This document shows, in pieces, positions 1 through 53,444 of a stretch of DNA of 64,000 nt; the stretch's first letter is position 1; each line of letters begins with the position of its first letter. A program made the position numbers and the translations under genes. Under the pieces are notes generated by a model, which was not told the origin of the DNA, did no database searches, and saw only the letters and a list, made by a program, of their open reading frames with translations. This stretch comes from Okamejei kenojei (Eukaryota), in assembly GCA_035221665.1 (NCBI GenBank), contig CM069142.1:58280001-58344000 (forward strand). Direction: 5' to 3'.

Positions 1-458
1 AAATGAAATGAACAATGAAATGCTGACTGTTGTTCTAAAGTACAAAACTCAACGAACACAGGAAGAGGTTACCATTTTAAGATAATATAATTTCCCTCTA
101 TTTCTTTGGGAAGGAATCAGTGCATCTCCCAGTGTACCACATAAATACTCCTGGTGAATGGTGAGCAGCAGGCATTGTGGTTCGCAAGGTGAAGTGGATG
201 GGGAGTCTATTCCCCCCTCCACCCAAAAGAATTGCAAAGAGAACAGAATTATCTGTGGAGTCATTAATTTATCATTGCACGAACATGTATCTAATCAAAA
301 TTAACATATTTTAAATTCTGCTTTTTAAAGGCTTAATCTATGTATTCTCCCTCCGTAGCTCTGCTCTACTCTACTAATGATGCCCAGAATTAACATGACA
401 CTGAATTATCTGTTACTTGGTCATCATTTCTATCCTGCATGACCATCATTTGGGTCAC

Positions 459-678
459 TTAGAGCCATAGAGTCATACAGTGTTTTAACAGGCCCTTCGG
501 CCCAACTTGCCCACAACGACCAACTTGTCCCATCTACACTAGTCCCACTTGCTTGCGTTTGGCCCATATCCCTCTAAAACTGTCCTATCTAATTGTTTCT
601 TAAATGTTGGGCTAGTCCCAGCCTCAACTATCTCCTCTGGCAGCTCGTTTCATACAACCACCGCCCTATATGTGAAAA
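459..678 (-). mobile_element. CR1 LINE 3' fragment
   Basis: (catagagt)-type tail, ggcccttcggcccaac hairpin region and RT C-terminal remnant; homologous to 53445-53827. Confidence 0.75.
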
Positions 679-855
679 TATATGACCTTGTGCATCTAAA
701 TTTAAAACAAATCTCATCATTGCAGACAGCTTCTGTTGAAAGAAAAATGGAGTTACATTTCAGGTCAAATACATTTGTTTCCTTGTGAAGCTATTCTTGT
801 CCATTGGACATATTTGCCATGTTTTGTTACACAGGCACTATCTCTCAAGACTTAC

Positions 856-1110
856 TTGTTATGATTGTTCCCTGGATGCTGTGTGGCTGATCGCAAGTTC
901 TCACCGTAACAACTACTCGATATTGCACATCCAATTGTAGATCTCGAAATACTGCCTTTTTCTTATTTGTCACAAAACTTAAAATTTGAACGTCAGCTAT
1001 GAAGAGAGTGACGTTATAAACAGCTTTGGCATTTAAAGACGTTTCGAAAGAAATCGAAATTTCGCCACTTTTTACTCTGATGAAATTCACACGAATTAAC
1101 TTCACGGGTA
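856..1110 (-). CDS. 255-nt phase 1-1 exon encoding a fibronectin type III-like domain, downstream exon of the mucin gene
   Basis: Acceptor ctttcattttcag|TA CCC GTG; donor ATA ACA A|gtaagt; 85 codons. The peptide VPVKLIRVNFIRVKSGEISISFETS...YNVTL...AVFRDLQLDVQYRVVVTVRTC...IIT shows alternating beta-strand hydrophobicity and the FN3-like L-x4-Y-x-V-x-V motif. It is in frame with the giant exon (G+TA=Val). Confidence 0.8.
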
Positions 1111-1249
1111 CTGAAAATGAAAGAAATTTCATTAGTAGTAACCGACTTAATTTCTTAATTAACACGTCCATTAACAACACATCCTTGAGACATAAAAATG
1201 GTTCACTTTAATGTACCTTTGACTGTGTAGTAGCTGTAAGGAGTATAGG

Positions 1250-2203
1250 AGTGAGGATTTGAGTATAAGAGTAAAGAGGTCCTTCTGCAGTTGTACAGGG
1301 CCCTAGTGAGACCACATCTGGAGTATTGTGTGCAGTTTATGTCTCCTAATTTGAGGAAGAACATCCTTACTATTAAAGCAGTGCAGCGTAGGTTCACAAG
1401 GTTATTCCCAGGGATGGTGGGACTGTCATATGAGGAAAAATTGGAAAGACTGGGCTTGTATTCACTGGAGGATGAGAAGGCAATCTTATAGAAACATATA
1501 AAATTATAAAAGGACTGGACAAGCTAGATGCAGGAAAAATGTTCCTAATGTTGGGGGAGTCCAGAACCAGGGGCTACAGTCTAAGAATAAAGAGGAGGTC
1601 ATTTAAAACTGAGATGAGAAAAAAAATTTTCACCAAGAGAATTGGGAATTTGTGGAATTCTCTGCCACATAAGGTAGTAGAGGCCAATTTATTGGATGAA
1701 TTTAAAAGAGAGTTATGCCCCTGTCCCACTTAGGAAACCTGAACGGAAACCTCTGGAGACTTTGCGCCCCACCCAAGGTTTCCGTGCGGTTCCCGGAGGT
1801 CCCCGGAGGTTTTTGTCAATCTCCCTAATGGTCGAAAGTGGTTTCCGTTTTAAAAATCGGTAATTTTTTAGTCGAAGCCGGTTGCGATGCTAGTTGAAGG
1901 TGGTTGCCAGAGGACAAAAACCTCCGGGAACCACACGGTAACCTTGGGTGGGGCGCAAAGTCTGCAGAGGGTTCCGTTCATGTTTCCTAAGTGGGACAGG
2001 GACAAAAGATAGAGCTCTAGGGGCGAGCAGAATCAAGGGATATGGGGAGAAGGCAGGCACGGGTTACTGATTGTGGATGATCAGCCATGATCACAGTGAA
2101 TGGTAGTGCTGGCTCAAAGGGCTAAATGGTTCACTTTAATGTACCTTTGACTGTGTACCTACCTCCTACTGCACCTATTGTCTACGTTTTTATGTTTCTA
2201 TGT
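1250..2203 (+). mobile_element. 5'-truncated CR1 LINE (RT C-terminus and 3' UTR), interrupted by a MITE
   Basis: YRALVRPHLEYCVQF...YEEKLERLGLYSLE and RTRGYSLRIK...NLWNSLP peptides; (tttctatg)n-like tail. Confidence 0.9.
1716..2004. mobile_element. Non-autonomous DNA transposon (MITE), PIF/Harbinger-like
   Basis: About 85-100 bp terminal inverted repeats (tgcccctgtcccacttaggaaac... / ...gtttcctaagtgggacagggaca), inserted after TTA in the CR1 sequence gagagtta^gatagagc; the right-hand TSD is degenerate (aaa). Confidence 0.8.
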
Positions 2204-2349
2204 AAGCAAAAATGACAGACATTGGGCTGCCCACATATAAATTCTGTAAACAAAATATGCATTGAAATTGCTGGTTTGATTAATGAACATATATTGTTTA
2301 AGGCCTCATGAGAACTCCAGAGTCAACCACTATAATATTCATTATTGAG

Positions 2350-2441
2350 AACACGATGTGCTGGTGCAACTCAGGGGTCAGGCAGCATCTCTGGAAGGCA
2401 TGAATAGGCGATGTTTCATGCCAGGGCCCCTGCTCAGACTC
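2350..2441. mobile_element. Short Penelope-like/SINE-like repeat fragment (gtgctgg...caggcagcatctctgga family)
   Basis: Homologous to the copies at 52110, 53120, 57310 and 59780. Confidence 0.6.
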
Positions 2442-2474
2442 AATGTTCTCATTTGCTTTGCTGCATGTCAATTG

Positions 2475-2536
2475 AGCATCAGTCTAACACCTCATCTAAT
2501 GGATCAGCATCAGTCTAACACCTCATCTAATGGATC
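2475..2536. repeat. Perfect 31-bp tandem duplication
   Basis: agcatcagtctaacacctcatctaatggatc x2. Confidence 0.95.
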
Positions 2537-2649
2537 GTGCTTGTTGCTATGCTGAATGCTTAGAAGGGAAAGTGATTGAATTATTGTTATGCCCAAACTC
2601 TAGAGTCAGTGCATAAATGGACAACCTTATATACTTTGATTGTCATAAG

Positions 2650-2955
2650 GGATGGTACCGCAAGGAATTTGAAATTTTAAGGAGCGAATTGGAAAAGTTT
2701 TCAAAATATTAAGGCAAAATGGTATGGATAAACCAGAATTATTTTGCAATCTTTAGACTGTTGAGAGCTCGGGGCATAGTTTAAAATTAACACCATGGTC
2801 TTTGGGACTGTAATTGGAAAATACTTCCACGAAGGGTAGGTAGAAGTTTAAAACTTTCTTCTGTAAGTGGAGTTTGATGCCAGTACAATCGTAAATTTAA
2901 ACATGGATGATGTATTTTGTGATACAAAATTATCAAGGATTAAGATGGATTGCTT
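2650..2955 (+). mobile_element. Old, degenerate CR1 3' fragment
   Basis: Residual similarity to the CR1 RT C-terminal coding region (gggcatagtttaaaatta...gaagggtaggtagaagttt...atcaaggattaag). Confidence 0.45.
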
Positions 2956-3066
2956 CATCAGATCTAAGAAAAAGAGAACCCGGTGAAAGCGAGGAGACCA
3001 GAAACGTTAACTGGTTCTCTATCCGTAGATACTGCCTCAACTGTTTTGCCAACATTTTCTGTATTT

Positions 3067-3219
3067 NNNNNNNNNNNNNNNNNNNNNNNNNNNNNNNNNN
3101 NNNNNNNNNNNNNNNNNNNNNNNNNNNNNNNNNNNNNNNNNNNNNNNNNNNNNNNNNNNNNNNNNNNNNNNNNNNNNNNNNNNNNNNNNNNNNNNNNNNN
3201 NNNNNNNNNNNNNNNNNNN
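3067..3219. other. Assembly gap (153 N)
   Basis: Run of N. Confidence 1.
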
Positions 3220-3323
3220 AATATAAAATATATTGATAATATATAGTTATATATATATTTATCAACCTATTATCAATATATTTTATATTTTGTCAATTTG
3301 TCAATTTTTGGCAATATTGATAA

Positions 3324-3409
<86 letters not shown>

Positions 3410-3462
3410 GCAACATATTATCAGTATATTTTATATTTTGTCAACATATATTGATAAAAATA
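3220..3462. repeat. (TA)n microsatellite / AT-rich low-complexity tract
   Basis: Long (ta)n runs at 3332-3405 next to the gap. Confidence 0.95.
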
Positions 3463-3476
3463 AATACAGAAAATGC

Positions 3477-3548
3477 TTCGGCACGGACTGGAAGGGCCGA
3501 GAGGGCCTGTCTCCGTGCTGTAATTGTTATATGGTTATATATGGTTAA
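3477..3548 (+). mobile_element. Extreme 3' end of a CR1 (same family as 50325-52085)
   Basis: gcacggactggaagggccgagagggcctgtctccgtgctgtaattgttatatggttatat is the reverse complement of the tail at 50325-50388. Confidence 0.8.
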
Positions 3549-3833
3549 ATGACTACCCTCTTAGACCACATGCAAGAAATGAATGTTGTCAGCTTGAAAA
3601 ACAAGTCAGGCAGTATCTATATACAAGATCGACACAAAATGCTGGAGTAACTCAGATGGTCAGACAGCGTCGACACCTGAAGAAACAGTTCCTTCCTACA
3701 CTGCATCTATATACACATATTTACTGTACAAAGAACTATATATGTGTGTGCATGTGTGTGTGCTTCAAATTGCATTCTTTGCAAGTAAAGGATGTTTGCT
3801 CAGGTGTTTTAAATGAAAAATGGTATTGAAATT

Positions 3834-3842
3834 ACTTACCAC
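3834..3842 (-). promoter_or_regulatory. 5' splice donor of the giant exon
   Basis: GTG|GTAAGT consensus exactly at the end of the coding composition. Confidence 0.85.
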
Positions 3843-6800
3843 AGGATGGATCAGGCATAGATTCGGTGGAGTCTGGTCGAATAGCTGGAATAGTTGTGGT
3901 AATTATCACTGGTTTGGTGGTAGTGGTTTGGTTGGTGACCTTGCCTCGTATGGCGGTAATGATTGGTTTGTTGGCTGTGGTTGAAGTGACGGTTATGGTG
4001 GTGATGGTTGGTGTGGTGGTCGTGATTGGTGCGATTGTTGCAGAAGTTCTTGGTGTGTTGGTTGTGGAGGAATTGGATGAAGCAATGATTGTGGCAGTGG
4101 TAGTCGTGATGGCTGTAGTGGAAGTGGTAGGTCTGATGGTTGTGGAGGTAGTTGTAGGTCTGATGGTTGTCGTAACTGAGGATGTTCTGGTATTTGGTGT
4201 GGCAGCACTGGTGGTTGCGATTAGTGTGGTCCTTGTGGGTTGTGAGTTTGCTGTAGTAGCTGTAACCGGAGTGGTTTTGTGGGTAATCCTCGATGAGGTT
4301 GGTCTTTTGATTGTCATTGCCATTGTACGTGGTGAGGTAAATGTGCTTGGTATGGCGCTTGCTGTGGTAGCAATTGTGAATGAGTTTGGTATGCTTGATG
4401 AAGTTAACGTTAAGGTTGGTGTGGGAGTAGTCCTTGGTGTGAATGAAGAGTTGCTTGTGGTAAAAGTGGATGGTATATTGATTGGTTTTTGGGATGTGAT
4501 TACAGTTGGAGAAGTTTGTGGTGTAGCCTCAGTCAGAGTTGTTTGGGATATGACCTGTTTGGTAAATGTTTGGGTTGTGTTCTCTCCTGTTCCAGCTTGT
4601 GACGTCATCACTCCTGCAGTAGATTGGGATATGGTCTCTCTTGTTGTACTTTGGGGCTTGATCTTTCCTGCAGTAGTTTGGAATGTGGATTCTTCTTCAG
4701 AACTTTGGGAAATTATTTTTCCTGTTGTAGGTAGGGACATAATCTCTCCTTCAGTAGTTAAGGATGTTATCTCTCCTGCAGTAGAGAGGAACATGATTTC
4801 TCCTGTGGTCGTTGTTGACGTAGACTCTCTTGCAGTACTTTGGTTTGCCGTCTCTCCTGTTGTTCTTCGGGACATTGGCTTTTCCGTCGTAGATTGGGAC
4901 ATTATCGCTCCGGCAGTAGTTTGAGCCATGGTCCATTGTGCAGTAGTTTGAAATGTGGTCTCTCCTGCAGTAGTTAGGGATATGATCCCTTCTATGGTAG
5001 TTTGGGATCTGTTGTCCACTACAACAGTTTGGGAGGAGGATTTGCTTTCAGTACTTTGGGTTATGACTTTTCCTGTTGTACTTTGGGACATGGTGTCTCC
5101 TTTACTAGTTTGGGCTCTGGTCGCTCCTTTAGTAGTTTGGGACATGATCTCTCTCGCAGTGGTTTGGGATGATGTCTGTCCTGTTGTAGGGTGGGATGTG
5201 GTCTCTCCTGCAGACGTTTGGGAGGTGATTTCATTTTCAGTACTTTGGGACATGATTTTTTCTGTTGTAGATTGGGACATGGTCTCTCCTTCAGTAATTA
5301 GGGATGTGGTCTCGCCTGCAGTACTTTGGGACCTGATCTCTACAATGGTAGTTTTTGACATAATCTCTCCTGTAGTCATTTGGAACATTGTCTCTCCTGT
5401 TGTAGTTTGGGTCATCATCTCACCTGTTGCAGTTTGGGACATTGTCCTTCCTGTCGTACTCTGGGATATGGTTTCTCTTTCAGAAGTATTGGGTGTGGTC
5501 TCTCCTGTTGTACTTTGGGACAAAGACTCTCCTACTGTAGTTTGAGACATCATCTCTCCTGCAGTAGTTTGGGCTGTGGTGTCACCTGTTGCAGTTTGGA
5601 ACATTGTTTCTCCTGTAGTAGTTTCAGTTGTGATCTCTCCTGCAGTTGTTTGCGATGTTGTCTCTACTGTAATAGATTGAGACATCATATCTCCTGTTGG
5701 ACTCTGGGACATGGCCTCTCCTGCAATAATTTGGGACGTGGTCTCTCCTGTGGTAGTTGTGGACGTGGATTCTACGTCAGTACTTTGGGAAATTCTTTTT
5801 CCATTTGTAGATTGGGACATGATCACTCCTTCAGTAGTTAGGAATGTGGTCTCTCCTACAGTAGTTTGGGCCGTGGACTCCCCTGTGGTAGTTTTTAATG
5901 TTGTCTCTCCTTCTTGAGTTTGGGCTGTGGTTTCTCCGGCAGTAGTTTGGGCTGTGGTCTTTGTTGCAGTAGTTTGGGACACCATGCGCCCTGTTGTAGT
6001 TTGGGACATAGTCTCATCTGTGATCGTTTGGGATGTTGTCTCTCCTTCAGTAGTTTGGGACACAATCTTTCCATCAGTAGTTTGGGACGATGTTTGTCCT
6101 GTTGTATGCTGTGATGTGATCTTTCCTTCAGTACTTAGAGATGTTGTCTCCACTGTAGTACTTTGGGCCTTGGTCACTTCAGCAGTAGTTTGGGATGTTG
6201 TCTCTTCTCCAGTAGCTTGGGCCGTAGTCTCTCCTGCAACAGTTCTGCGTGTGGTCTCTCCTGGAATAGATTGAGACATTGTATCTCCTGTTGTACTCTG
6301 GGACATGGTCTCTCCTGCAATAGTTTGGACTGTAGTCTTTCCTATTATACTTTGGGAAATCATCTGCCCTGCAGTAGTTTGGGATGAGATCCCCACTGCA
6401 GTAATTTGAGCTGTCGTCTCAACTATTGCAGTTTGGGATATTGTCTCTCCTGTAGTAGTTTCAGATGTGATCTCTCCTGCAGTAATTTGGGATGTGGTCT
6501 CGACTGTAGTAGATTGGGACATGGACTCTCCTGTTGCAGTTTGTGACATGGTCTGTTCTGCAGTAGTTTGCGATATTGTCTCTCCTTCAGTAGTTTGGGA
6601 TATGATTTCTCCTGCAGAAGTTTGGGATGATATCTGTCCTGTTGTACGTTGGGATGTGATTCCTCCTTCAGTAGCTAGGGATGTGGCTTCTCCTGCAGTA
6701 AAATGGGATGTTGACTCTTCTGCATTACTTCGGTCTGTGGTCACTCCTGCAGTAGTTTTGGATGTTGAATCTCCTGCATTAACTTGGGCCATAGTCTCTC

Positions 6801-9800
6801 CTGAAATAGTTTGGGTCAAAGCCTCTCCTGTAGTAGATTGAGACATCGTATCTCCTGTTGTACTCTGGGACACGGTCTCTCCTGCAATAATTTGGGACGT
6901 GGTCTCTCCTATGGTAGTTGTGGACATGGATTCTTCTTCAGTACTTTGAGAAATCATTTGTCCTGTTGTAGATTGGGACATGATCACTCCTTCAGTAGTT
7001 AGGAATGTGGTATCTCTTGCAGTAATTTGGGCCGTGGTCTCCCCTGTAGTAGTTTTTACCATTGTCGCTCCTTCTTGAATTTGGGCTGTGGTCTCTCCGG
7101 CAGTAGTTTGAGCTGTGGTCTCTGCTACAGAGGTTTGGTACATCATCCGCCCTGTTGTAGTTTGGGACATAGTATCTTCTGTCAGAGGTTGGGATGTTGT
7201 CTCTCCTTCAGTAGTTTGGGACACGATCTCTCCTGCAGTAGTTTGGGACGATGTTTGTTCTGTTGTGTGTTGGGATGAGATCTCTCCAGCAGTAGTTTGG
7301 GATGTTATCCTTCCTCCTGTAGTTTGGGCCGTAGTCTCTCCTGCAATAGTTCTGAACGTGGTCTCTCCAGTAACAGATTGAGACATTGTATCCCCTGTTG
7401 TACTCTGGGACGAGATCGCCACTGCAGTAGTTTGGGACGAGATCTCCACTGCAGTAGTTTGGGCCGTCATCTCAACTGTTGCGGTTTGGGACGTTATCTC
7501 TCCTGTAGTAGTTTCAGATATGATCGCTCCTGCAGTAATTTGCGATGTAGTCTCTACTGTAGTAAATTGGGACATGGACACTCCTGTTGCAGTTTGTGAC
7601 ATGGTCTGTTCAGCAGTAGTTTGGGATGTTATCTCTCCGTCACCAGTTTGGGACAATGTCTGACCTGCTGGACGTTGGAATGTGGTCTCTCGTTCAGTAG
7701 TTAGGGATGTGATTTCTCTTTCATTAGTAGTTTGGGACATGGTTTCTTCTGCAGTAGTTTGGGACATGATCTCTTCTGCAGAGGTTTGGGACATTGTCTC
7801 TCCTGCATTAGTTCCGGATGTCATCTCTCCTGTAGTAACTTGGAATGTTGTGGATGAGGTCACTGCTGGAGTAGATTGTGACCTTGTCTCCCCCACTGTA
7901 ATCTGGGACATGGTCTCTCCTGCAGTAGTTTGGACCAATATCTCCCTTGTTGTACTTTGGGACAGAGTCTCGCCTGTTATACTTTGGGTCATCATCTCTC
8001 CTACAGTAGTTTGGGATGAGATCTCTCCTGCAGTAGTTTGTGCCGTGGTCACTCCTGTAATATTGTGGAAAATTGTCTCTCCTGTAGTAGTTTCGGATGT
8101 CATCTCTCCTGTAGTAACTTGGAATGTTGTCTCTATTGCAGTACTTTGGGTTGTGGTCGCTGCTGGGGTAGTTTGGAGTGTTGTCTCTCCTCCAGTAGCT
8201 TGGGCCATAGTTTCTCCTGCAATAGTTCTGGATGATGTCTCTGCTATAGTGGATTGTGACATTGCCTCTCCCACCAAATTTTTGGACACGGTCTCTCCTG
8301 CAGTAGTTTGCACTGTAGTCTCTCTTGTTGTACTTTGGGACAGAGTCTCGCCTGTTGTACTTTGGGGCATCAAATCTCCTGCAGTAGTTTGTGACGAGGT
8401 CTCTACTGCAGTAGTTTGGAACATTGTCTCTCCTGTAGTAGTTTTGGATGTGATCACTCCTGCAGTAATTTGAGATGTTGTCTCTACTCCAGTAGCTTGG
8501 GCTGTAGTCTCAAGTGCAATAATTTGGGACGTGGTCTCTCCTGCAGTAGTTTGGACACTGGTCTCTCCTGTTACACTCTGAGACATAGTCTCGCCTGTTG
8601 TACTTTGGGAAATCAACATCCCTGTAGTAGTTTGGGACAAGATCTCCACTGCAGTAGTTTGGGTCGTCGTCTCAACTTTTGCAGTTTGGGACATTGTCTC
8701 TCCTGTAGTAGTTTCAGATGTGATCTCTCCTGCAGTAATTTGGGATGTGGTCCCTACTGTAATAGATTGGGACATGGACTCTCCAGTTGCAGTTTGTGAC
8801 ATGGTCTGTTCTGCAGTAGTTTGGGATGTTGTCTCTCCTTCAGATGTTTGGGACATGATTTCTCCTGCAGTAGTTTGGGATGATGTCTGTCCTGTTGTAT
8901 GTTGAGATGTGTTCTCCCCTTCAGTAGTTAGGGATGTGGTTTCTCCTGCAGTAGTTTGAGACATGGTTTCTTCTACAGTAGTTTGGGAAATGATCTCTCC
9001 TCCAGTAGTTTGGGACATTGCCTCTCCTGTAGTAGTTTCAGATGTCATCTCTCCTGTGATAATTTGGAATGTTGTCTCTTGGGCAGTACCTTGGGTTGTG
9101 GACACTCCTGCAGTAGTTTGCAATGTTGTCTCTCCACCAGTAGCTTGGGCCATTGTGTCTCCTGCAATAGTTGTGGACAAGATCTCTGCTGTAGTGGATT
9201 GTGACCTTGTCTCTCCCGCAGTACTCAGGGACATGGTCTCTCCTGCAGTAGTTTGGAACATTGTCTCTCCTGTTGTCTTTTCAGTTGTCATCCCTCCTGT
9301 AGTAACTTGGAATGTTGTCTCTATTGCAGTACTTTGCGTTGTGGTCACTCCTGCAGTAGTTTGCAATGTTGTCTCTCCTCCAGTAGATGAGGTCTCTGCT
9401 GTAATGGATTGCGACATTGTCTCACCCAGTGTACTCTGGGACATGGTCTCTCTTGTAGTAGTTTGGACTGTTATCTTTCTTGTTGTACTTTGGGACAGAG
9501 TCTCGCCTGTTGTACTTTGGGGCATCAAGTCTCCTGGACTAGTTTGTGACAAGGTCTCTACTGCAGTAGTTTGGGACATTGTCTTTCCTGTAGTAATTTT
9601 GGATATGATCGCTTCTGCAGTGGTTTGAGATGATGTCTCTCCTCCAGTAGCTTGGGCCGTCATCTCATGTGTAATCATTTGGGACATGGTCTCTCCTGCA
9701 GTAGTTTGGACAGTAGTCACTCCTGATATACTCTGGAATATAGTCTCTCCTGTTGTACTTTGGGACATCATCTCCCCTGCAGTAGTTTGGGATGTTGGCT

Positions 9801-12800
9801 CTACTGTAATAGATTGGGACATGGTGTCTCTTGTTACTGTTTCTGAAATGGTCTGATCTGCGGTAGTTTGAAATGAGGTCACACCTTCCATTGTTTGAGA
9901 TGTTGTCTCTCCTCCAGTAGCTTGGCCTGTAGTCTCTCCTGCAATAGTTTGGGATGTGGTCTCTCCTTTTGCACTTTCGGACATGGTCCCTCCGGTTGTA
10001 GTTTGGGACATGGTCTGTTCTGCAGTAGTTTGTGGTGTGGTCACTACTGAACTAGATTGGGACATCGTCTCTCCTGTAGTAAATTGAGTCATTGTCTCTC
10101 CTGCTGTTTTCTGGGACATGGTCTCTCCTGCAGTAGTTTGGGACACGGTCTCTCCTATGGTAGTTTTGGACATGATTTCATCTTCAGTACTTTGGGAAAT
10201 GACTTTTCCTGTTATGGATTGGGACATGGTCTCTACTTCAATAGTTTGTGATGCAGTCTCTTCTGCCGTAGTTTGAGACATGATCTCTCCTGTGGTAGTT
10301 TTGATCGTTGTCTCTCCTGCAGAAGTTTGCGCGGTGTTCTCTGCGGCAGTAGTTTCAGCCGTTGTCGCTCCTGCAGTATTTTGGGATATCATCTGTCCTG
10401 TTGTAGTTTGAGACAAGCTCTCTTCTGTGATTGTTCGGGATGTTTTCGATCCTTCAGTAGTTTGGGATATGATCTCTCCTGCGGTAGTTTGGGACGATGT
10501 CTGTCCTGTTGTATGTTGGGATGAGGTCTCTCCTTCTGTGGTTATGAAAGTGATTTCTTCTGCAGGAGTTTGGGACATTGTCTCTCCTGTAGTAGAATGG
10601 GCCATGCTCTTTCCTGCATTAATTCTGGACGTGTTCTCTTCTATAGTTGTTTGAGACGTTGTCTTTCCCGCCGTTCCCTTGGACATGGTCTTCCCTGCAG
10701 TAATTTGCACTGTAGTTTCTCTTGATGTACTTTGGGACTGAGTCTCCACTGTTGTACTTTTGGACATCAATTCTACTGCAATAGTTTGGGAGGTGGTCTC
10801 ACCTGTGGCAATTTGGGACATTGTCTCTCCTGTAGTAGTTTCAGATGTGATCTCTGGTGCAGTATTTTGGGATGCGGTGTCTACTGTAGTAGATTGGGAC
10901 ATGGTCTCTCCTGTTGTAGTTTGGAATGTGATCTCTTCAGTAGAAGATTGGAACACAGACTGTTCTGCAGGAGGTTGGGATGTTGTCACTACTGAACTAG
11001 TTTGGGACATTATCTCTGCTATAGTAATTTCAGATGTCAGCTCTCCTGTAGTAGCTTGGGCCGTAGTCACTGATGCAATTGTTTGGTTGGTGGTCACTCC
11101 TGTGGTAGATTGAGACATCATCTCCCCTGTTGTACTCTGGGACATGATCTCTCCTGCAGTAGTTTGAGACGTGATCTCTCCTATGGTAGTTTGTGATATC
11201 ATCTGTCCTGTTATAATTTGAGACAAGTTCTCTTCTTTGATAGTTTGGGATGTTTGCACTGTAGTCTCTCTTGATGTACCTTGGGACTGAGTCTCCACTG
11301 TTGTACCTTGGGACATCATCTCTACTGCAATAGTTTGGGAGGTGGTCTCACCTGTGGCAGTTTGGGACATTGTCTCTCCTGTAGTAGTTTCATATGTGAT
11401 CTCTGGTGCAGTATTTTGGGATGTGGTCTCCACTGCTGTTGATTGGGACATGGTCTCTCCAGTTGTAGTTTGGAATGTGGTCTCTTCAGTAGAAGATTGG
11501 AACATGGTCTGTTCTGCAGGAGGTTGAGATGTTGTCACTACTGAACTAGTTTGGAACATTGTCTCTGCTGTAGTAATTTCAGATGTCAGCTCTCCTGCAG
11601 TAGCTTTGGCCATAGTCACTGGTGCAATTGTTTGGGTTGTGGTCTCTCCTGTAGTAGATTGAGACATCATCTCCCCTGTTGTACGTGGGGACATGGTATC
11701 TCCTGCAGTAGTTTGGGACGCGGTCTCTCCTATGATAGTTTTGGACGTGGTATTTTCTTCAGTACTTTGGGAAATTATTTTACCTGTTGTAGATTGGGAC
11801 ATGGTCTCTACTTCAATAATTCGTGTTGTAGTCTCTTTTGCAGTAGTTTGAGACATGATCTCTCCTGTGGTAGTTTTTAATGTTGTCTCTCCTGCAGATG
11901 TTTGGACGGCGTTCTCTGCGGCAGTAGTTTCGGCCATTGTCTCTCCTGCAGTATTTTGGGATATCGTCTGTCCTGTTGTAGTTTGAGACAAGCTCTCTTC
12001 TGTGATTGTTCGGGATGTTTTCGCTCCTTCAATAGTTTGGGAGGTATTCTCACGTGTGGAAGTTTGGGACATTGTCTCTCCTGTAGTAGTTTTAGATGTG
12101 ATCGCTGGTGCAGTATTTTGGGATGTGGTCTCAACTGTAATAGATTGGGACGTGGTCTCGCCTGTTGTAGTTTGGAATGTGATTTCTTCAGTAAAAGATT
12201 GGAACATGGTCTGTTCTGCAGGAGTTTGGGATATTGTTACTACTGAACTAGTTTGGAACATTGTCTCTGCTGCAGTAATTTCAGATGTCATCTCTCCTGT
12301 AGTAGCTTGGGCCGTAGTCACTGCTGCAATAGTTTGGTTTGCAGTCTCTCCTGTAGTAGATTGAGAAATCATCTCACCTGTTGTACTCTGCGACATGGTC
12401 TCTCCTGCAGTAGTTTGGGACGCGATCCCTCCTATGGTAATTTTAGATGTTGTATTTTCAGTGATAGTTTGGGATGTGTTTGCTCCTTCGGTAGTTTGGG
12501 ATGTGATCTCTCCTGTGTTAGTTTGCGACGATATCTGTCCTGTTGTAGGTTGGGATGTGGTCCCTCCTTCAGTAGTTGTAGGTTGAGATGTGGTCTCCAC
12601 TTCAGTAGTTACAGATGGGGTTTCTCCTGCAGGTGTTTGGGACATTGTCTCTCCTGTAGTTGTTTTGGATGTAATCTCTTCAGTAGTGGTTTGAGATGTT
12701 GTCTCTCCACCAGTTGACAGGGCTGTGCTCCCTCCTGTATTTGGTCTGAATGTGGTATCTCCTGTAGTAGATTGAGGCGTTATCTCTCCTGCTGTTCTCT

Positions 12801-15691
12801 GGGACAAGGTCTCTCCTGCAGTAGTTTGGACAGTAGTCTCTCTTGATGTACTTTGGGACCGAGTCTCCACTGTTGTACTTTGGGACATCATCTCTACTGC
12901 AATAGTTTGTGTCATGGTCTCACCTGTGGCAGTTTGGGACATTGTCTCTCCTGTAGTAGTTTCAGATGTGATCTCTGGTGCAGTATTTTGGGATGTGGCC
13001 CCAACTGTAGTAGATTGGGACACTGTCTCCCCCGTTGTAGTTTTGAATGTGATCTCTTCAGTAGAAGATTGGAACATAGTCTGTTCTGCAGGAATTTGGG
13101 ATATTGTCACTACTGAAATTGTTTCAGATGTCAGCTCTCCTGTAGTAGCTTGGGCCGTTGTCACTGGTGCAATTGTTTGAGTCATGGTCTCTCCTGTTGT
13201 AGATTGAGACATCATCTCCCCTGTTGTACTTGGGGACATGGTATCTCCTGCAGTAGTTTGGGATGCTGTCTCTCCTATGGTAGTTTTGGACGTGGTATCT
13301 TCTTCAGTACTTTGGGAAATGATTTTACCTGTTGAAGATTGGGACATGGTCTTTACTTCAATAGTTTGTGATGTAGTCTCTGCTGCAGTAGTTTCGGCCG
13401 TTGTCTCTCCTGCAGTAATTTGGGATATCATCTGTCCTGTTGTAGTTTGAGACAAGCTCTCTTCTGTGATAATTTGGGATGTTTTCGTTCCTTCAGTAGT
13501 TTGGGATATGATCTCTCCTGACGTAGAGTGGGACGATGTCTGTCCTGTTGTACGTTGGGATGTGGTCTCTCCTTCTGTGGTTATGAATGTGATTTCTCCT
13601 GCAGGTGTTTGGGACATGGTCTCTCCTGTAGTAGTTTCAGATGCCATCTCTCCAGCACTAGTTTGGGATGTTGCTTCTCCTCCAGTAGAATGGGCCGTGC
13701 TCTCTCCTGCATTGATTCTGGACATTGTCTCTTCTGTAGTTGTTTGAGACATTGTCTTTCCCGCTATTCTCTGGGTCATGGTCTCTCCTGCATTAGTTTT
13801 CACTGTAGTCTCTCTTGATGTACTTTGGGACTGAGTCTCTACTGTTGTACTTTGGGACATCATCTCTACTGCAACAGTTTGGGCCGTGGTCTCACCTGTG
13901 GCAGTTTGGGACATTGTCTCTCCTGTAATAGTTTCAGATGTGACCTCTGGTGCAGTATTTTGGAATGTGGTCTCAACTGTGGTAGATTGGGACATGGTCT
14001 CTCCTGCTGTAGTTTGGAATGTGATCTCTTCAGTAGAAGATTGGAACATGGTGTGTTCTGCAGGAGTTTGGGATATTGTTACTACTGAACTAGTTTGGAA
14101 CATTGTCTCTGCTGTAGTAATTTCAGATGTCAGCTCTCCTGTAGTAGCTTGGGCCGTAGTCACTGCTGCAATAGTTTGGTTTGTGGTCTCTCCTGTAGTA
14201 GATTGAGAAATCATCTCCCCTGTTGTACTCTGGGACATGGTCCGTCCTGCAGTAGTTTGGGATGCGATCTCTCCTATGGTAGTTTTATACGTGGTTTCTT
14301 CTTCAATACTTTGGGAAATGACTTTTCCTGTTGTAGATTGGGACATGGTCTCTCCTTCAATACTTTGTGATGTAGTCTCTCCTGCAGTAGTTTGAGACAT
14401 GATCTCTCCTGTGGTAGTGTTTAACGTTGTCTCTCCTGCAGTAGTTTCGGCCATTGTCTCTCGTGCAGTATTTTGTGATATCATCTGTTCTGTTGTAATT
14501 TGAGACAAGCTCTCTTCTGTGATAGTTTGGGATATTTCCGCTCCTTCACTAGTTTGGGATATGATCTCTCCTGCCGTAGTTTGGGACGATGTCTGTCCTG
14601 TTGTACGTTGGGATGTGGTCTCGCCTGGAGTAGTTTCAGATGTCATCTCTTCAGCAGTAGTTTGAGATGTTGTCTCTCCTCCAGTTGACTGGGCCGTGCT
14701 CTCTCCTGCATTTGCTGTGGACACGGTCTCTGCTATGGTAGTTTGGACTGCAGTCTCTCTTGATGCACTTTGGAACCAAGTCTCTACTGTTGTACTTTGG
14801 GACATCATCTCTGCAGCAATAGTTGGGGCCGTGGTCTCACCTGTGGCAGTTTGGGACATTGTCTCACCTGTAATAGTTTCAGATGTGATCTCTGGTGCGG
14901 TATTTTGGGATGTGGTCTCCACTGTAGTAGATTGGAACATGTTCTCTCCTGTTGTAGTATGGAATGCGGTCTCTTCAGTAGAAGATTGGAACATGGTCTG
15001 TTCTGCAGTAGTTTGGGATGTTGTCACTCCTGAACTGGTTTGGGTCATCGTTTCTGCTGTAGTAATTTCAGATGTCATCTCTCCTGTAGTAGCTTGGGCC
15101 GTAGTCACTGGTGCAATTGTTTGGTTTACGGTCTCTCCTGTAGTAGATTGAGATATCATCTCCCCTGTTGTACTCTGGGACATGGTCTCTCCTGCAGTAG
15201 TTTGTGACGCGATCTCTCTTATAGTAGTTTTAGACATTGTATCTTCTGTGATAGTTAGGGATGTTTTTTCTCCTTCTGTAGTTTGGGATGTGATCTCTCC
15301 TGTGTTAGTTTGGGATGATATCGGTCCTGTTGTAGGTTGGGATGTGGTCCCTACTTCAGTAGTTGTAGGTTGAGATGTGGTCTCCACTTCAGTAGTTATA
15401 GATGGGGTTTCTCCTGCAGGTGTTTGGGACATTGTCTCTCCTGTAGTTGTTTCGGATGTAATCCCTTCAGTAGTAGTTTGAGATGTCTCTCCACCAGTTG
15501 GCAGAGCTGTGCTCTCTCCTGCATTTGCTCTGAATGTGGTCTCACCTGTTGTAGATTGAGCCGTTGTATATTCTGCTGTTCTCTGGGACATGGTTTCTCC
15601 TGCAGTAGTTTGGACTGTAGTATCTCTTGATGTACTTTGGGACCGAGTCTCCACTGTTGTACTTGGGGACATCATCTCTACTGCAACAGTT
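3840..15691 (-). CDS. Mucin exon segment 6 (~3,950 codons), ending in a T/P-rich stalk and ...SMPDPSC
   Basis: ORF 3832..15708; its stop lies just inside the intron after the GTAAGT donor at 3839. Confidence 0.9.
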
Positions 15692-18600
15692 TTGTGTCGT
15701 GGTCTCACCTGTGGCAGTTTGGGACATTGTCTCTCCTGCAGCAGTTTCAGGTGTGACCTCTGGTGCAGTATTTTGGGATGCAGTCTCTACTGTAGTAGAT
15801 TGGGACATGGTCTCTCCTGTTGTAGTTTGGAATGTGATCTCTTCAGTAGAAGATTGGAACATGGTCTGTTCTGCAGGAGTTTGGGATATTGTTACTACTG
15901 AACTAGTTTGGAACATTGTCTTTGCAGTAGTAATTTCAGATGTCAGCTCTCCTGTAGTAGCTTGGGCCGTAGTCACTGCTGCAATAGTTTGGTTTGTGGT
16001 CTCTGCTGTAGTAGATTGAGACATCATCTCACCTGTTGTACTCTGGGACATGGTCTCTCCTGCAGTAGTTTGGGACGCGATCTCTCCTATGGTAGTTTTA
16101 GATGTTGTATTTTCAGTGATAGTTTGGGATGTGTTTGCTCCTTCGGTAATTTGGGATATGATCTCTCCTGTGTTAGTTTGGGATAATATCTGTCCTGTTG
16201 TAGGTTGGGATGTGGTCCCTCTTTCAGTAGTTGTAGGTTGAGATGTGGTCTCCACGTCAGTATTTATAGATGGGGTTTCTCCCGCAGGTGTTTGGGACAT
16301 TTTCTCTCCAGTAGTTGTTTCGGATGTAATTTCTTCAGTAGTAGTTTGAGATGTTGTCTCTCCACCAGTTGGCAGGGCTGTGCTCTCTCCTGCATTTGCT
16401 CTGATTGTGGTCTCTCCTGTTGTAGATTGAGCCGTTGTATCTCCTGCTGTTCTCTGGGACATGGTTTCTCCTGCACTAGTTTGGACAGTAGTCTCTCTTG
16501 ATGTACTTTGGGACCGAGTTTCCACTGTTGTACTTTGGGACATCATCTCTACTGCAATAGTTTGTGTCGTGGTCTCACTTGTGGCAGTTTGGGACATTGT
16601 CTCTCCTGTAGTAGTTTCAGATGTGATCTCTGGTGCAGTATTTTGGGATGTGGTCTCCACAGTAGTAGATTGGGAGACTGTCTCCCCTGTTGTAGTTTTG
16701 AATGTGATCTCTTCAGTAGAAGATTGGAACATGGTCTGTTCTGCAGGAGTTTGGGATATTGTCACTACTGAAACTGTTTCAGATGTCAGCTCTCCTGTAG
16801 TAGCATGGGCCGTAGTCACTGGTGCAATTGTTTGGGTCACAGTCTCTCCTGTTGTAGATTGGGACATCATTGCCCCTGTTGTACTTGGGGACATGGTATC
16901 TCCTGCAGTAGTTTGGGATGCAGTCTCTCCTATGGAAGTTTTGGATGTGGTATCTTCTTTAGTACTTTGGGAAATGAGTTTATCTGTTGAAGATTGGGAC
17001 ATGGTCTCTACTTCAATAGTTTGTGATGTAGTCTCTGCTGCGGTAGTTTCGGCCGTTGTCTCTCCTGCAGTAATTTGGGATATCATCTGTCCTGTTGTAG
17101 TTTGAGACAAGCTCTCTTCTGTGATAATTTGGGATGTTTTCGTTCCTTCACTAGTTTGGGATATGATCTCTCCTGCCGTAGGGTGGGACGATGTCTGTCC
17201 TGTTGTACGTTGGGATGTGGTCTCTCCTTCTGTGGTTATGAATGTGATTTCTCCTGCAGGTGTTTGGGACATGGTCTCTCCTGCAGCAGTTTCAGGTGTG
17301 ACCTCTGGTGCAGTATTTTGGGATGCAGTCTCTACTGTAGTAGATTGGGACGTGGTCACGCCTGTTGTAGTTTGGAATGTGATCTCTTCAGTAGAAGATT
17401 GGAACATGGTCTGTTCTGCAGGAGTTTGGGATATTGTTACTACTGAACTAGTTTGGAACATTGTCTTTGCAGTAGTAATTTCAGATGTCAGCTCTCCTGT
17501 AGTAGCTTGGGCCGTAGTCACTGCTGCAATAGTTTGGTTTGTGGTCTCTCCTGTAGTAGATTGAGACATCATCTCACCTGTTGTACTCTGGGACATGGTC
17601 TCTCCTGCAGTAGTTTGGGACGCGATCTCTCCGATGGTAGTTTTAGATGTTGTATTTTCAGTGATAGTTTGGGATGTGTTTGCTCCTTCGGTAATTTGGG
17701 ATATGATCTCTCCTGTGTTAGTTTGCGATGATATCTGTCCAGTTGTAGGTTGGGATGTGGTCCCTCCTTCAGTAGTTGTAGGTTGAGATGTCGTCTCCAC
17801 GTCAGTATTTATAGATGGGGTTTCTCCTGCAGGTGTTTGGGACATTGTCTCTCCTGTAGTTGTTTTGGATGTAATCTCTTCAGTAGTAGTTTGAGATGTT
17901 GTCTCTCCACCAGTTGACAGGGCTGTGCTCCCTCCTGCATTTGCTCTGAATGTAGTCTCTCCTGTAGTAGATTGAGCCGTTGTCTCTTCTGCTGTTCTCT
18001 GGGACATGGTTTCTCCTGCACTAGTTTGGACTGTAGTCTCTCTTGAAGTACTTTGGGACCGAGTCTCCACTGTTGTACTTTGGGACATCATCTCTACTGC
18101 AATAGTTTGTGTCGTGGTCTCACCTGTGGCGGTTTGGGATATTGTCTCTCCTGTTGTAGTTTTGAATGTGATCTCTTCAGTAGAAGATTGGAACATGGTC
18201 TGTTCTGCAGGAGTTTGGGATATTGTCACTACTGAAATTGTTTCAGATGTCAGCTCTCCTGTAGTAGCTTGGGCCGTAGTCACTGGTGCAATTGTTTGGG
18301 TCACGGTCTCTCCTGTTGTAGATTGAGACATCATCTCCCCTGTTGTACTTGGGGACATGGTATCTCCTGCAGTAGTTTGGGATGCGGTCTCTCCTATGGT
18401 AGTTTTGGATGTGGTATCTTCTTCAGTACTTTGGGAAATGAGTTTACCTGTTGAAGATTGGGACATGGTCTCTACTTCAATAGTTTGTGATGTAGTCTCT
18501 GCTGCAGTAGTTTCGGCCGTTGTCTCTCCTGCAGTAATTTGGGATATCATCTGTCCTGTTGTAGTTTGAGACAAGCTCTCTTCTGTGATAATTTGGGATG

Positions 18601-21600
18601 TTTTCGTTCCTTCAGTAGTTTGGAATATGATCTCTCCTGTCGTCGAGTGGGACGATGTCTGTCCTGTTGTACGTTGGGATGTGGTCTCTCCTGTGGTTAT
18701 GAATGTGATTTCTCCTGCAGGTGTTTGGGACATGGTCTCTCCTGTAGTAGTTTCAGATGCCATCTCTCCAGCACTAGTTTGGGATGTTGCTTCTCCTCCA
18801 GTAGAATGGGCCGTGCTCTCTCCTGCATTGATTCTGGACATTGTCTCTTCTGTAGTTGTTTGAGACGTTGTCTTTCCCGCTATTCTCTGGGTCATGGTCT
18901 CTCCTGCATTAGTTTTCACTGTAGTCTCTCTTGATGTACTTTGGGACTGAGTCTCTACTGTTGTACTTTGGGACATCATCTCTACTGCAACAGTTTGGGC
19001 CGTGGTCTCACCTGTGGCAGTTTGGGACATTGTCTCTCCTGTAGTAGTTTCAGATGTGACCTCTGGTGCAGTATTTTGGAATGTGGTCTCAACTGTGGTA
19101 GATTGGGACATGGTCTCTCCTGCTGTAGTTTGGAATGTGATCTCTTCAGTAGAAGATTGGAACATGGTGTTCTGCAGGAGTTTGGGATATTGTTACTACT
19201 GAACTAGTTTGGAACGTTGTCTTTGCAGTAGTAATTTCAGATGTCATCTCTCCTGTAGTAGCTTGGGCCGTAGTCACTGGTGCAATTGTTTGGTTTGTGG
19301 TCTCTCCTGTAGTAGATTGAGACATCATCTCCCCTGTTGTACTCTGGGACATGGTCCGTCCTGCAGTAGTTTGGGACGCGATCTCTCCTATGGTAGTTTT
19401 ATACGTGGTTTCTTCTTCAATACTTTGGGAAATGACTTTTCCTGTTGTAGATTGGGACATGGTCTCTCCTTCAATACTTTGTGATGTAGTCTCTCCTGCA
19501 GTAGTTTGAGACATGATCTCTCCTGTGGTAGTGTTTAACGTTGTCTCTCCTGCAGTAGTTTCGGCCATTGTCTCTCGTGCAGTATTTTGTGATATCATCT
19601 GTTCTGTTGTAATTTGAGACAAGCTCTCTTCTGTGATAGTTTGGGATATTTCCGCTCCTTCACTAGTTTGGGATATGATCTCTCCTGCCGTAGTTTGGGA
19701 CGATGTCTGTCCTGTTGTACGTTGGGATGTGGTCTCGCCTGGAGTAGTTTCAGATGTCATCTCTTCAGAAGTAGTTTGAGATGTTGTCTCTCCTCCTGCA
19801 TTTGCTGTGGACACGGTCTCTGCTATGGTAGTTTGGACTGCAGTCTCTCTTGATGCACTTTGGAACCAAGTCTCTACTGTTGTACTTTGGGACATCATCT
19901 CTGCAGCAATGGTTGGGGCCCCGTGGTCTCACCTGTGGCAGTTTGGTTTGACATTGTCTCACCTGTAATGTGATCTCTGGTGTATTTTGGGATGAGTAGA
20001 TTGGAACATAGTAGTAGTGTGGTCACTCCTGAACAGTAGTAATTTCAGATGTCATCTCTCCTGCTCTCTAACGCGATCTCTCTTATAGTAGTTTCATTGT
20101 ATCTGTAGTTTGGGATGTTTCCTGTGTTAGTTTGTAATCTCTTTGTAGGTTGGTATGTGGTCCCTACATCAGTAGTAGTTTGAGATGTGGTCTCTTCCTC
20201 TCAGGTGTTTGGGACACTCTCCTGTAGTTGTTTCAGCAGGGCTCTCCACCAGTGCTCTCTCCTGCATTTGCTCTGAATGTGGTCTCACCTGTTGTAGATT
20301 GAGCCGTTGTATATTCTGCTGTTCTCTGGGACATGGTTTCTCCTGCAGCAGTTTGGACAGTAGTCTCTCTTGATGTACTTTGGGACCGAGTCTCCACTGT
20401 TGTACTTGGGGACATCATCTCTACTGCAACAGTTTGTGTCGTGGTCTCACCTGTGGCAGTTTGGGACATTGTCTCTCCTGTAGTAGTTTCAGATGTGATC
20501 TCTGGTGCAGTATTTTGGGATGTGGTCTCAACTGTAGTAGATTGGGAGACTGTCTCCCCTGTTGTAGTTGTGAATGTGATCTCTTCAGTAGAAGATTGGA
20601 ACATGGTCTGTTCTGCAGGGGTTTGGGATATTGTCACTACTGAAACAGTTTCAGATGACAGCTCTCCTGTATTAGATTGGGCCGTAGTCACTGGTGCAAT
20701 TGTTTGGGTCACGGTCTCTCCTGTTGTAGATTGAGACATCATCTCCCCTGTTGTACTCTGGGACATGGTATCTCCTGCAGTAGTTTGGGACGCGATCTCT
20801 CTTATGGTAGTTTTAGACGTTGTATCTTCTGTGATAGTTTGGGATGTTTTTGCTCCTTCCGTAGTTTGGGATATGATCTCTCCTGTGGTAGTTTGGGATG
20901 ACATCTGTCCTGTTGTAGGTTGGGATGTGGTCCCTCCTTCAGTAGTTGTAGGTTGAGATGTGGTCTCCACTTCAGTAGTTATAGATGGGGTTTCTCCTGC
21001 AGGTGTTTGGGACATTGTCTCTCCTGCAGTTGTTTCGGATGTAATCCCTTCAGTAGTAGTTTGAGATGTCTCTCCACCAGTTGGCAGAGCTGTGCTCTCT
21101 CCTGCATTTGCTCTGAATGTGGTCTCACCTGTTGTAGATTGAGCCGTTGTATATTCTGCTGTTCTCTGGGACATGGTTTCTCCTGCAGTAGTTTGGACTG
21201 TAGTATCTCTTGATGTACTTTGGGACCGAGTCTCCACTGTTGTACTTGGGGACATCATCTCTACTGCAACAGTTTGTGTCGTGGTCTCACCTGTGGCAGT
21301 TTGGGACATTGTCTCTCCTGCAGTAGTTTCAGATGTGATCTCTGGTGCAGTATTTTGGGATGCAGTCTCTACTGTAGTAGATTGGGACATGGTCTCTCCT
21401 GTTGTAGTTTGGAATGTGATCTCTTCAGTAGAAGATTGGAACATGGTCTGTTCTGCAGGAGTTTGGGATATTGTTACTACTGAACTAGTTTGGAACATTG
21501 TCTTTGCAGTAGTAATTTCAGATGTCAGCTCTCCTGTAGTAGCTTGGGCCGTAGTCACTGCTGCAATAGTTTGGTTTGTGGTCTCTGCTGTAGTAGATTG

Positions 21601-48685: not shown

Positions 48686-48712
48686 CTGAATTGCAAGAAG
48701 AAATATATCATA
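48686..48712 (-). promoter_or_regulatory. 3' splice acceptor of the giant exon
   Basis: Minus strand atgatatatttcttcttgcaattcag| lies exactly where the T/S-rich coding composition begins. A second in-frame CAG lies 6 nt downstream. Confidence 0.8.
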
Positions 48713-52085: not shown

Positions 52086-52107
52086 TATTTTAGATTAAGT
52101 GGGTGGA

Positions 52108-52320: not shown

Positions 52321-52329
52321 TGATTAAGT

Positions 52330-53115: not shown

Positions 53116-53119
53116 GAAG

Positions 53120-53299: not shown

Positions 53300-53301
53300 A
53301 A

Positions 53302-53420: not shown

Positions 53421-53444
53421 GTTTACTTGATAGGATTTTTTTCT

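What the first reader, a model, noticed from the sequence alone, without database searches (positions are those of the whole stretch)
856..3860. Giant mucin exon splices in frame to an FN3 exon: candidate UMODL1-type protein with a hugely expanded mucin stalk
Seen: donor TGT G|gt plus acceptor ag|TA CCC gives ...MPDPSC-VPVKLIRVNFIRVKSGEISISF...VFRDLQLDVQYRVVVTVRTC...IIT, an 85-codon FN3-like unit. From recollection, vertebrate UMODL1/olfactorin has a T/P-rich region followed by a C-x-PV-initiated FN3 with a late Cys, then SEA, EGF and ZP domains. Classical gel-forming (VWD) and MUC1/16-type mucins lack this junction. Inference: this may be a lineage-specific ZP-polymerising protein carrying a megadalton mucin brush. 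It could be an undescribed way of building an extracellular gel or filament matrix in cartilaginous fish.
Basis: partly seen in the sequence, partly recalled or inferred. Interest (0 to 1): 0.8.

Follow-up and report, generated by a model that had tools for sequence, protein, structure and literature searches.

The report
Giant FN3-SEA cell-surface mucin gene
This is part of a ray-like fish's gene for a very large membrane-anchored mucus protein from an apparently undescribed, often mislabelled family also found in sharks, turtles and birds; it is not the filament-forming UMODL1 protein first suspected.

Summary
A minus-strand 44,846-nt Thr/Ser-rich exon (48685→3840, about 14,950 codons, 9-residue repeat) splices phase 1–1 to a 255-nt exon (1110→856) that encodes an FN3 domain.

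The ZP interpretation does not hold. The closest relative is a stingray protein (58% identical, tree support 97/95) that also shares the mucin's non-repetitive end. All 14 chondrichthyan relatives examined run from a final SEA domain straight into a transmembrane helix and short tail, most as PTS–FN3–SEA–EGF(n)–SEA–TM. So do all 14 of 118 turtle and bird relatives that have a C-terminal transmembrane helix. None leaves room for a ZP module.

Best reading: a tethered SEA mucin that works like MUC17/MUC12 and shares UMODL1's FN3–SEA–EGF module without being UMODL1. Databases label its relatives 'UROL1', 'DAN4-like' or 'mucin-5AC-like'; ten literature searches found no description.

Six frame breaks in the exon look like assembly errors. 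The exon size is within the human MUC12 range. The downstream and N-terminal exons lie outside the window, so the architecture is inferred from relatives.

The parts
3840..48685 (-). Giant mucin (PTS) exon, 44,846 nt, about 14,950 codons, phase 1-1; T 31%, S 13%, E 10%; 27-nt (9-residue) repeat; ends in ...PDPSC
   Evidence: Splice sites; read-through with X at breaks; tandem period 27
38620..48685 (-). Mucin block A (about 3,350 aa), unit TPAETTST-like, Pro 7.4%, T+S 46.5%
4600..38620 (-). Mucin block B (about 11,340 aa), unit TTGETMSQT-like, Pro-poor (1.6%), Glu/Gln-rich, net charge -8 per 100 aa
11935..25520 (-). Recent higher-order duplications inside block B (segments of about 0.7-2.6 kb, 89-98% identical); the true exon length is least certain here
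15691..30734 (-). Six frame switches (near 30734, 21667, 20238, 19918, 19169, 15691) with a deletion-riddled patch at 19.9-20.3 kb; probably consensus errors
   Evidence: 35 of 35 out-of-frame gap events between paralogous copies touch these sites; the other 26 of 61 gap events are 3 or 6 nt
3840..4600 (-). Non-repetitive mucin end (block C), partly conserved with the stingray relative P0003; supplies the first Cys of the FN3 unit
   Evidence: (24 of 45 identical, E 8e-8 pairwise)
1111..3839 (-). Intron (GT-AG) with repeat fragments and an assembly gap at 3067-3219
856..1110 (-). FN3 exon, 255 nt, phase 1-1, with the conserved late Cys
1..855 (-). Start of the next intron; the expected SEA exon is not in the window
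   Evidence: tblastn of 22 relatives finds only the FN3 exon at E < 0.1
48686..64000 (-). Upstream intron, mostly transposon remnants; no signal-peptide, EGF, WAP, EMI, FN3 or SEA exon identified

Best explanation
The window holds two internal exons of a type I transmembrane (tethered) mucin of a batoid-like cartilaginous fish. It belongs to a jawed-vertebrate family with the layout signal peptide - PTS mucin - FN3 - SEA - EGF/EGF-Ca (1 to several) - small Cys motif - SEA - transmembrane helix - tail of about 15-30 residues. Shown in the window: the giant PTS exon and the FN3 exon with their splice sites. Inferred from relatives: the SEA, EGF, SEA, TM and tail exons beyond the left edge, and a signal-peptide exon beyond the right edge. 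Inferred mechanism, from MUC1/MUC17 biology: the roughly 15,000-residue T/S-rich region is densely O-glycosylated into an extended, acidic bottle-brush some micrometres long. It is held on an apical epithelial membrane by the FN3-SEA-EGF-SEA spacer and the helix, forming a glycocalyx barrier, lubricant and microbial decoy. One or both SEA domains may self-cleave at Gly-Ser so that the brush can be shed under force. It does not polymerise through a ZP module.
For: phmmer of the exon over 1.84 billion representatives: 6 hits, of which 3 are full-length matches at 47-58% identity; all three are FN3-SEA-EGF-SEA-TM without ZP, and two carry a PTS region before the FN3. They are named as Hemitrygon, Cetorhinus and Pristiophorus proteins. 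The window FN3 is sister to Hemitrygon P0003 (97/95, 85 columns) and shares its mucin end. The 9-residue period is the top or joint-top lag in the window and in all five tested relatives of the same paralogue group (P0003, P0004, P0010, P0011, P0012), but not in the other paralogue group or in sauropsids. SEA-to-TM distance is 63-76 aa with no Cys in 14 of 14 chondrichthyan proteins, and 58-60 aa in the 14 of 118 sauropsid proteins that have a C-terminal helix. Last SEA motif is GSVVV in 8 of 14 chondrichthyan proteins; the known cleavage motif is G/S[V/I]VV (PMC13643018 passages). Signal peptides lead straight into PTS in P0016, P0022 and P0049.
Against: The exons after FN3 and before the mucin are outside the window, so the architecture is by proxy and rests on predicted gene models. 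No relative in the window's own paralogue group has a recognisable signal peptide in its model, so its N-terminus is unknown. The closest relative's last SEA motif is GSVQV, not canonical, so self-cleavage is uncertain. Six frame breaks mean that a recent pseudogene or a null allele is not excluded. 104 of 118 sauropsid models lack a C-terminal helix (mostly partial) and say nothing about ZP. There are no expression, glycosylation or localisation data.
Confidence: 0.8

Rival explanations
1. It is the true UMODL1/olfactorin orthologue with an expanded inter-module mucin stalk and a C-terminal ZP module that polymerises into filaments.
For: A PTS - Cys - FN3 - SEA - EGF order like that recalled for UMODL1; UMODL1 clusters are the next-nearest after the family's own cluster in the ESM Atlas (0.81, 0.80; TM 0.49); automatic names 'uromodulin-like 1' and 'UROL1' on one shark and many bird relatives.
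Against: UMODL1 is defined by EMI, WAP, FN3, EGF-Ca, SEA and ZP domains (PMC8874799 passages). ZP, WAP and EMI are absent from the domain lists of 26 of 26 and 120 of 120 listed hits and from fresh Pfam scans of 32 family members. There is no room for a module of about 260 residues between SEA and the helix.
Confidence: 0.05
2. The gene is a recently disabled copy (pseudogene or null allele) of the tethered mucin, and the frame breaks are real.
For: Six frame switches and two in-frame stops in the best read-through; the family has several paralogues per shark genome (3 Heptranchias and 2 Cetorhinus models share a contig length), so one copy could decay.
Against: Three breaks are single-base extensions of a homopolymer and one is a dinucleotide loss. 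Each is private to one copy of otherwise 92-99% identical repeats (30734: nearest copy 81%). All other indels between copies are 3 or 6 nt. Both stops lie in the deletion-riddled patch. Splice sites and the FN3 exon are intact.
Confidence: 0.1
3. It is a secreted or shed mucin: the dominant product is released and forms a gel or jelly (skin mucus, ampullary jelly, egg jelly) rather than staying in a glycocalyx.
For: Its extreme length and acidic, Pro-poor composition; SEA cleavage allows shedding. This can hold together with the best explanation.
Against: No VWD, cystine-knot, CysD or ZP cross-linking domain in relatives. Outside the degraded patch the mucin has only its final Cys. No tissue data.
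Confidence: 0.15
4. It is a CD45/receptor-PTP-type protein (mucin stalk followed by FN3).
For: The top structural matches of the FN3 model are CD45 (VIA Z 11.9-12.2) and PTP-eta (Foldseek rank 1).
Against: Identity to these is only 11-14%, and dozens of other FN3 domains score Z 10-11. True relatives at 47-58% have SEA/EGF domains and 14-29-residue tails with no phosphatase domain.
Confidence: 0.01

Closest known systems
SEA-type transmembrane mucins (MUC17, MUC12, MUC3A/B, MUC1, MUC13)
   Same: Large single-exon PTS domain, membrane-proximal SEA with a Gly-Ser-Val motif, EGF-like domains, one transmembrane helix, short tail, probable tandem gene cluster. The size is comparable to long MUC12 alleles (up to 23,080 aa; PMC13345508).
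   Different: An FN3 domain directly after the PTS, two SEA domains separated by calcium-binding EGFs and a small Cys motif. Found here in sharks, rays, turtles and birds, with no mammalian member among the listed hits. Orthology to any human MUC was not tested.
UMODL1 / olfactorin
   Same: FN3-SEA-EGF module preceded by a T/S/P-rich region; nearest named family in the ESM Atlas; the source of the automatic 'UROL1' labels.
   Different: Relatives have no ZP, WAP or EMI; a second SEA takes the place where UMODL1 has ZP.
Unnamed database family: Hemitrygon 'uncharacterized protein' (P0003), Heptranchias 'uromodulin-like 1, partial' (P0012), Carcharodon 'DAN4-like' (P0010), Corvus 'mucin-5AC-like' (P0019), bird 'UROL1 partial' models
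   Same: The window gene is a member: FN3 is 49-58% identical to one shark/ray paralogue group, with the same C-x-P start, late Cys, exon boundary and 9-residue repeat.
   Different: Database models fetched here have at most 1,917 aa (searches were limited to 2,000 aa or less), and several start inside the repeat. The window shows a stalk of about 15,000 residues.
Xenopus secreted PTS/SEA alternating mucin-like proteins (Lang et al. 2007, as cited in PMC4948705)
   Same: PTS plus SEA domains in a non-mammalian vertebrate.
   Different: Described as secreted with alternating SEA and PTS; no FN3 or helix mentioned in the passage seen.

Membership tests
UMODL1/olfactorin | FN3 followed by SEA and EGF | tested here: met
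   FN3 in the window; SEA and EGF follow in the closest relatives. By proxy for SEA and EGF.
UMODL1/olfactorin | ZP module before the transmembrane helix | tested here: not met
   By proxy (the window's downstream exons are outside it): 28 of 28 relatives with a C-terminal helix go SEA to helix in 58-76 aa without Cys; no ZP hit.
UMODL1/olfactorin | N-terminal EMI and WAP domains | tested here: inconclusive
   No such exon within 15 kb upstream. Relatives with a signal peptide (P0016, P0022, P0049) lack them, but none of these is in the window's own paralogue group.
UMODL1/olfactorin | Synteny and phylogenetic orthology with mammalian UMODL1 | not testable with these tools
   No neighbouring gene in the window, and no ZP-bearing UMODL1 sequence was returned by any search.
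SEA-type transmembrane mucin | Large PTS tandem-repeat domain in a single exon | tested here: met
   44.8-kb exon, T+S 43%, 9-residue repeat; six frame breaks in this assembly.
SEA-type transmembrane mucin | Membrane-proximal SEA domain, one helix, short cytoplasmic tail | tested here: met
   By proxy: 14 of 14 chondrichthyan relatives.
SEA-type transmembrane mucin | G/S[V/I]VV autoproteolysis motif | tested here: inconclusive
   GSVVV in 8 of 14 chondrichthyan relatives, variants in 6, including GSVQV in the closest one.
SEA-type transmembrane mucin | Dense O-glycosylation and apical epithelial expression | not testable with these tools
   No expression or glycoproteomic data.
SEA-type transmembrane mucin | Orthology with a named human MUC gene | not tested
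   No human MUC sequences were among the hits.
Gel-forming mucin (MUC2/5/6/19) | VWD-C8-TIL assemblies, CysD, cystine knot | tested here: not met
   No such Pfam hit in relatives; no Cys-rich inserts in the mucin exon.
CD45 / receptor PTP | Cytoplasmic phosphatase domain | tested here: not met
   By proxy: tails of 14-29 residues in relatives.

The most novel reading that the evidence does not exclude
An old, unrecognised jawed-vertebrate family of tethered mucins arose from the UMODL1 FN3-SEA-EGF module by replacing the polymerising ZP module with a sheddable SEA anchor. It persists in sharks, rays, turtles and birds but not mammals, where it may do the job of the MUC3/12/17 cluster. In rays and sharks it carries one of the longest vertebrate coding exons (about 45 kb, about 1.5 MDa), hidden in databases because annotation truncates the repeat, and builds a glycocalyx several micrometres thick.
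Probability: 0.4. Interest if true: 0.62.

Novelty: new variant of a known kind. Interest (0 to 1): 0.42.

Why it matters
A chicken mucin inventory found no MUC3, MUC12 or MUC17 homologue in chicken or fishes (PMC1552070 passages), which leaves open what builds the tethered glycocalyx in those animals. An FN3-SEA-EGF-SEA tethered mucin kept from sharks to birds is a concrete candidate that can be tested in chicken or quail. It would also mean that about a hundred bird 'UROL1' labels are probably wrong, and it would link tethered mucins to the UMODL1 module. The 45-kb exon is remarkable but has a human precedent. The more surprising claim, a ZP filament bearing a megadalton brush, is not supported, which lowers the interest.

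Tried and rejected
PDB sequence search with the exon alone: 0 matches at E <= 10. Word-index homologue search with the exon alone: 0 of 41 candidates. Three of the six phmmer hits (P0002, P0006, P0007) were dropped: they are repeat-rich, bacterial-type proteins scored by summing short stretches. Eight EGF-only hits (fibulin, ADGRE and similar, 18-33% coverage) were dropped from the family counts. P0009, P0014 and P0015 were left out of the FN3 tree because they lack a whole FN3; the tree used 20 of 132 family proteins (30 FN3 domains plus the window's). Searches for upstream exons (AG-GT enumeration, EGF-type Cys pattern, signal-peptide scan, tblastn) gave nothing convincing: five weak signal-peptide candidates, none resembling the relatives' signal peptides and two of them inside repeat-derived sequence. 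The CD45 structural match was rejected as generic FN3 similarity. The profile of FN3+SEA matched only FN3-type chains at E < 0.5 in the PDB. Cluster membership of the hits could not be looked up, and no model of the FN3+SEA pair was obtained, so the predicted disulfide between the two conserved Cys is untested. 45 of the 165 hits were not listed and could include ZP-bearing UMODL1, amphibian, teleost or mammalian proteins. Ten paper searches showed no description of this family; the library lacks most subscription journals, and no supplements were read.
Full report
Observation. On the minus strand a Thr/Ser-rich exon runs from an acceptor at 48685 (ttcag|AT, phase 1) to a donor at 3840 (TGT G|gtaagt), 44,846 nt in all. 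After a 2.7-kb intron that contains a 153-N gap, a 255-nt exon spans 1110 to 856 with a polypyrimidine acceptor and a gtaagt donor, phase 1-1. The mucin has a 27-nt period throughout. It falls into a Pro-containing block (about 3,350 aa), a Pro-poor Glu/Gln-rich block (about 11,340 aa) and a non-repetitive end. Read through with X at breaks it is 14,949 residues, about 1.54 MDa, with T 30.7% and S 12.6%. The longest stop-free run is 6,011 codons; 100 base shuffles reach at most 238.

Frame breaks. There are six frame switches between 30.7 and 15.7 kb and two stops in a degraded patch at 19.9-20.3 kb. The region 11.9-25.5 kb consists of recent duplications 89-98% identical. Compared with paralogous copies, three breaks are one extra base in a homopolymer, one is a lost dinucleotide, and the patch shows many short deletions (part of that output was cut). 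Among 77 high-identity self-alignments, all 35 out-of-frame gap events touch these sites, and the other 26 gap events are 3 or 6 nt. No break was copied by the duplications. This pattern fits consensus error, or else very recent mutation; reads are needed to decide.

FN3 identity. Pfam alone is weak: FN3_Tor_3rd E 0.0012 and fn3 E 0.15, both below cut-off, and the PDB sequence search found nothing. The ESM Atlas puts fn3 clusters first at 0.96. The single-sequence model has seven strands at pLDDT 74.8 and matches FN3 domains in Foldseek and VIA-align (Z 10-12). CD45 tops the VIA list, but at 11-14% identity among many similar scores.

Relatives. An exhaustive phmmer search gave 6 hits, 3 of them full-length at 58, 50 and 47%; the other 3 are repeat artefacts. 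Searching with residues 330-833 of the best hit gave 26 proteins: 14 from sharks and rays, 4 from birds and 8 EGF-only matches. A profile of FN3+SEA from 7 relatives gave 165 hits, of which the 120 listed are 116 bird, 2 turtle and 2 chondrichthyan proteins. Names given by the sources are inconsistent: 'uncharacterized', 'uromodulin-like 1', 'UROL1 partial', 'DAN4-like', 'mucin-5AC-like', 'fibrillin-1-like', 'jagged-2-like'. In an FN3 tree the window is sister to the stingray Hemitrygon protein P0003 (97/95) inside a chondrichthyan clade, apart from a second shark paralogue group (96/89) (85 columns, midpoint root). It shares a 45-residue stretch of the mucin end with P0003. The 9-residue period is also seen in P0003, P0004, P0010, P0011 and P0012 but not in the second group or in sauropsids. 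The source is therefore probably a ray or skate.

The junction is supported by comparison. The Cys two residues before the FN3's first Pro is invariant in the 7 aligned relatives, as is the late Cys (these 7 were chosen among models that keep the junction). In the window that Cys can only come from the mucin exon. Four gene models that lack it (P0005, P0008, P0011, P0013) diverge at exactly this boundary. This also argues against a hidden exon in the intron gap.

Architecture. Pfam scans of 32 family members show SEA, EGF, EGF-Ca and fn3, and no ZP, WAP, EMI or VWD. All 14 chondrichthyan proteins end in a SEA Gly-Ser motif, 63-76 Cys-free residues, a transmembrane helix and a short tail. The same holds, at 58-60 residues, for the 14 of 118 sauropsid proteins that have a C-terminal helix; the other 104 are mostly partial and uninformative. 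A ZP module (about 260 residues, Cys-rich; established knowledge) cannot fit. UMODL1 is defined by EMI, WAP, FN3, EGF-Ca, SEA and ZP (PMC8874799, passages). A relationship remains likely: for the stingray protein the Atlas ranks a ZP-less fn3+SEA chordate cluster first (0.92) and UMODL1 clusters next (0.81, 0.80), with TM 0.49 over residues 330-632. Scores below 0.9 are leads only, and no true UMODL1 sequence was available for a tree. No further exon of the gene was found in the window, so these features are inferred for the window gene itself.

Mechanism. By analogy with MUC17 and MUC1, the PTS region should become an O-glycosylated bottle-brush anchored at an epithelial surface, and SEA may cleave itself at G/S[V/I]VV and release the brush under force (PMC13643018, passages and section 11). 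MUC17 builds a glycocalyx about 1 micrometre thick. At about 0.25 nm per residue (recalled value) this stalk would extend 3-4 micrometres. The canonical motif is present in 8 of 14 chondrichthyan relatives but is GSVQV in the closest one. The two conserved Cys probably form a disulfide that caps the FN3 (inference, untested).

Novelty. Tethered SEA mucins are a known kind, and the exon size has a precedent: human MUC12 alleles span a 55-kb range and reach 23,080 aa (PMC13345508, passages). What appears new is the FN3-SEA-EGF-SEA variant as a family across sharks, rays, turtles and birds. Ten searches (listings and abstract starts) showed no description. Term searches inside the chicken inventory (PMC1552070), the metazoan survey (PMC4948705) and the carp survey (PMC11414713) found no mention of fibronectin or FN3. 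The shark skin proteome (PMC10707392) has no mention of uromodulin or SEA domain. PMC6262864 (passages) reports ZP-bearing 'uromodulin-like' genes in Chondrichthyes, which are not shown to be this gene. PMC11378355 (one passage) added nothing. Most subscription journals and all supplements were not seen, and metagenome and viral collections were not relevant or examined.

Verdict.

Noticed in passing
P0012, P0013, P0014 (Heptranchias) and P0004, P0017 (Cetorhinus): Several family members share one contig length per species, and the Cetorhinus locus numbers are nearly adjacent (LOC144691900, LOC144691902), suggesting a tandem cluster of two paralogue groups. P0013 begins with a SEA fragment and may fuse two neighbouring genes.
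   Followed up: partly
Bird and turtle hits: About a hundred bird models labelled 'UROL1 protein, partial' have fn3+SEA and no ZP; full-length relatives end SEA-TM. The chromosome-scale contigs listed for the turtle, fowl, waterfowl and ostrich hits are 175-347 Mb, which from recall is chromosome 1, where UMODL1 is also expected; adjacency was not checked.
   Followed up: partly
window 48685-48655 (-) versus P0008 residues about 63-72: The first residues of the mucin exon resemble by eye a short stretch just before the FN3 in the Chiloscyllium model, as if that model kept the exon's start and skipped the repeat; not significant in BLAST.
   Followed up: partly
C-terminal tails of relatives: The helix start and a tail pattern with two Tyr and a final hydrophobic residue are conserved between sharks and birds; a possible sorting or PDZ-type motif.
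   Followed up: no
P0016 (Mustelus), P0031 and P0032 (turtles), birds: The FN3(-SEA) module is internally duplicated with PTS spacers, independently in sharks and sauropsids according to the FN3 tree.
   Followed up: partly
window 50693-52094 (-) and 55787-56521 (+): LINE reverse-transcriptase remnants (Pfam RVT_1) in the upstream intron.
   Followed up: yes
window about 62658-63656 (-): Two open frames with a CCHC zinc-knuckle-like motif read by eye near 62,860-62,815, probably a retrotransposon gag remnant; no Pfam hit at E <= 0.001.
   Followed up: partly
window 3045-3480: The assembly gap (3067-3219) is flanked by AT-rich low-complexity sequence and a short inverted copy of the sequence before the gap, typical of an assembly break.
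   Followed up: no
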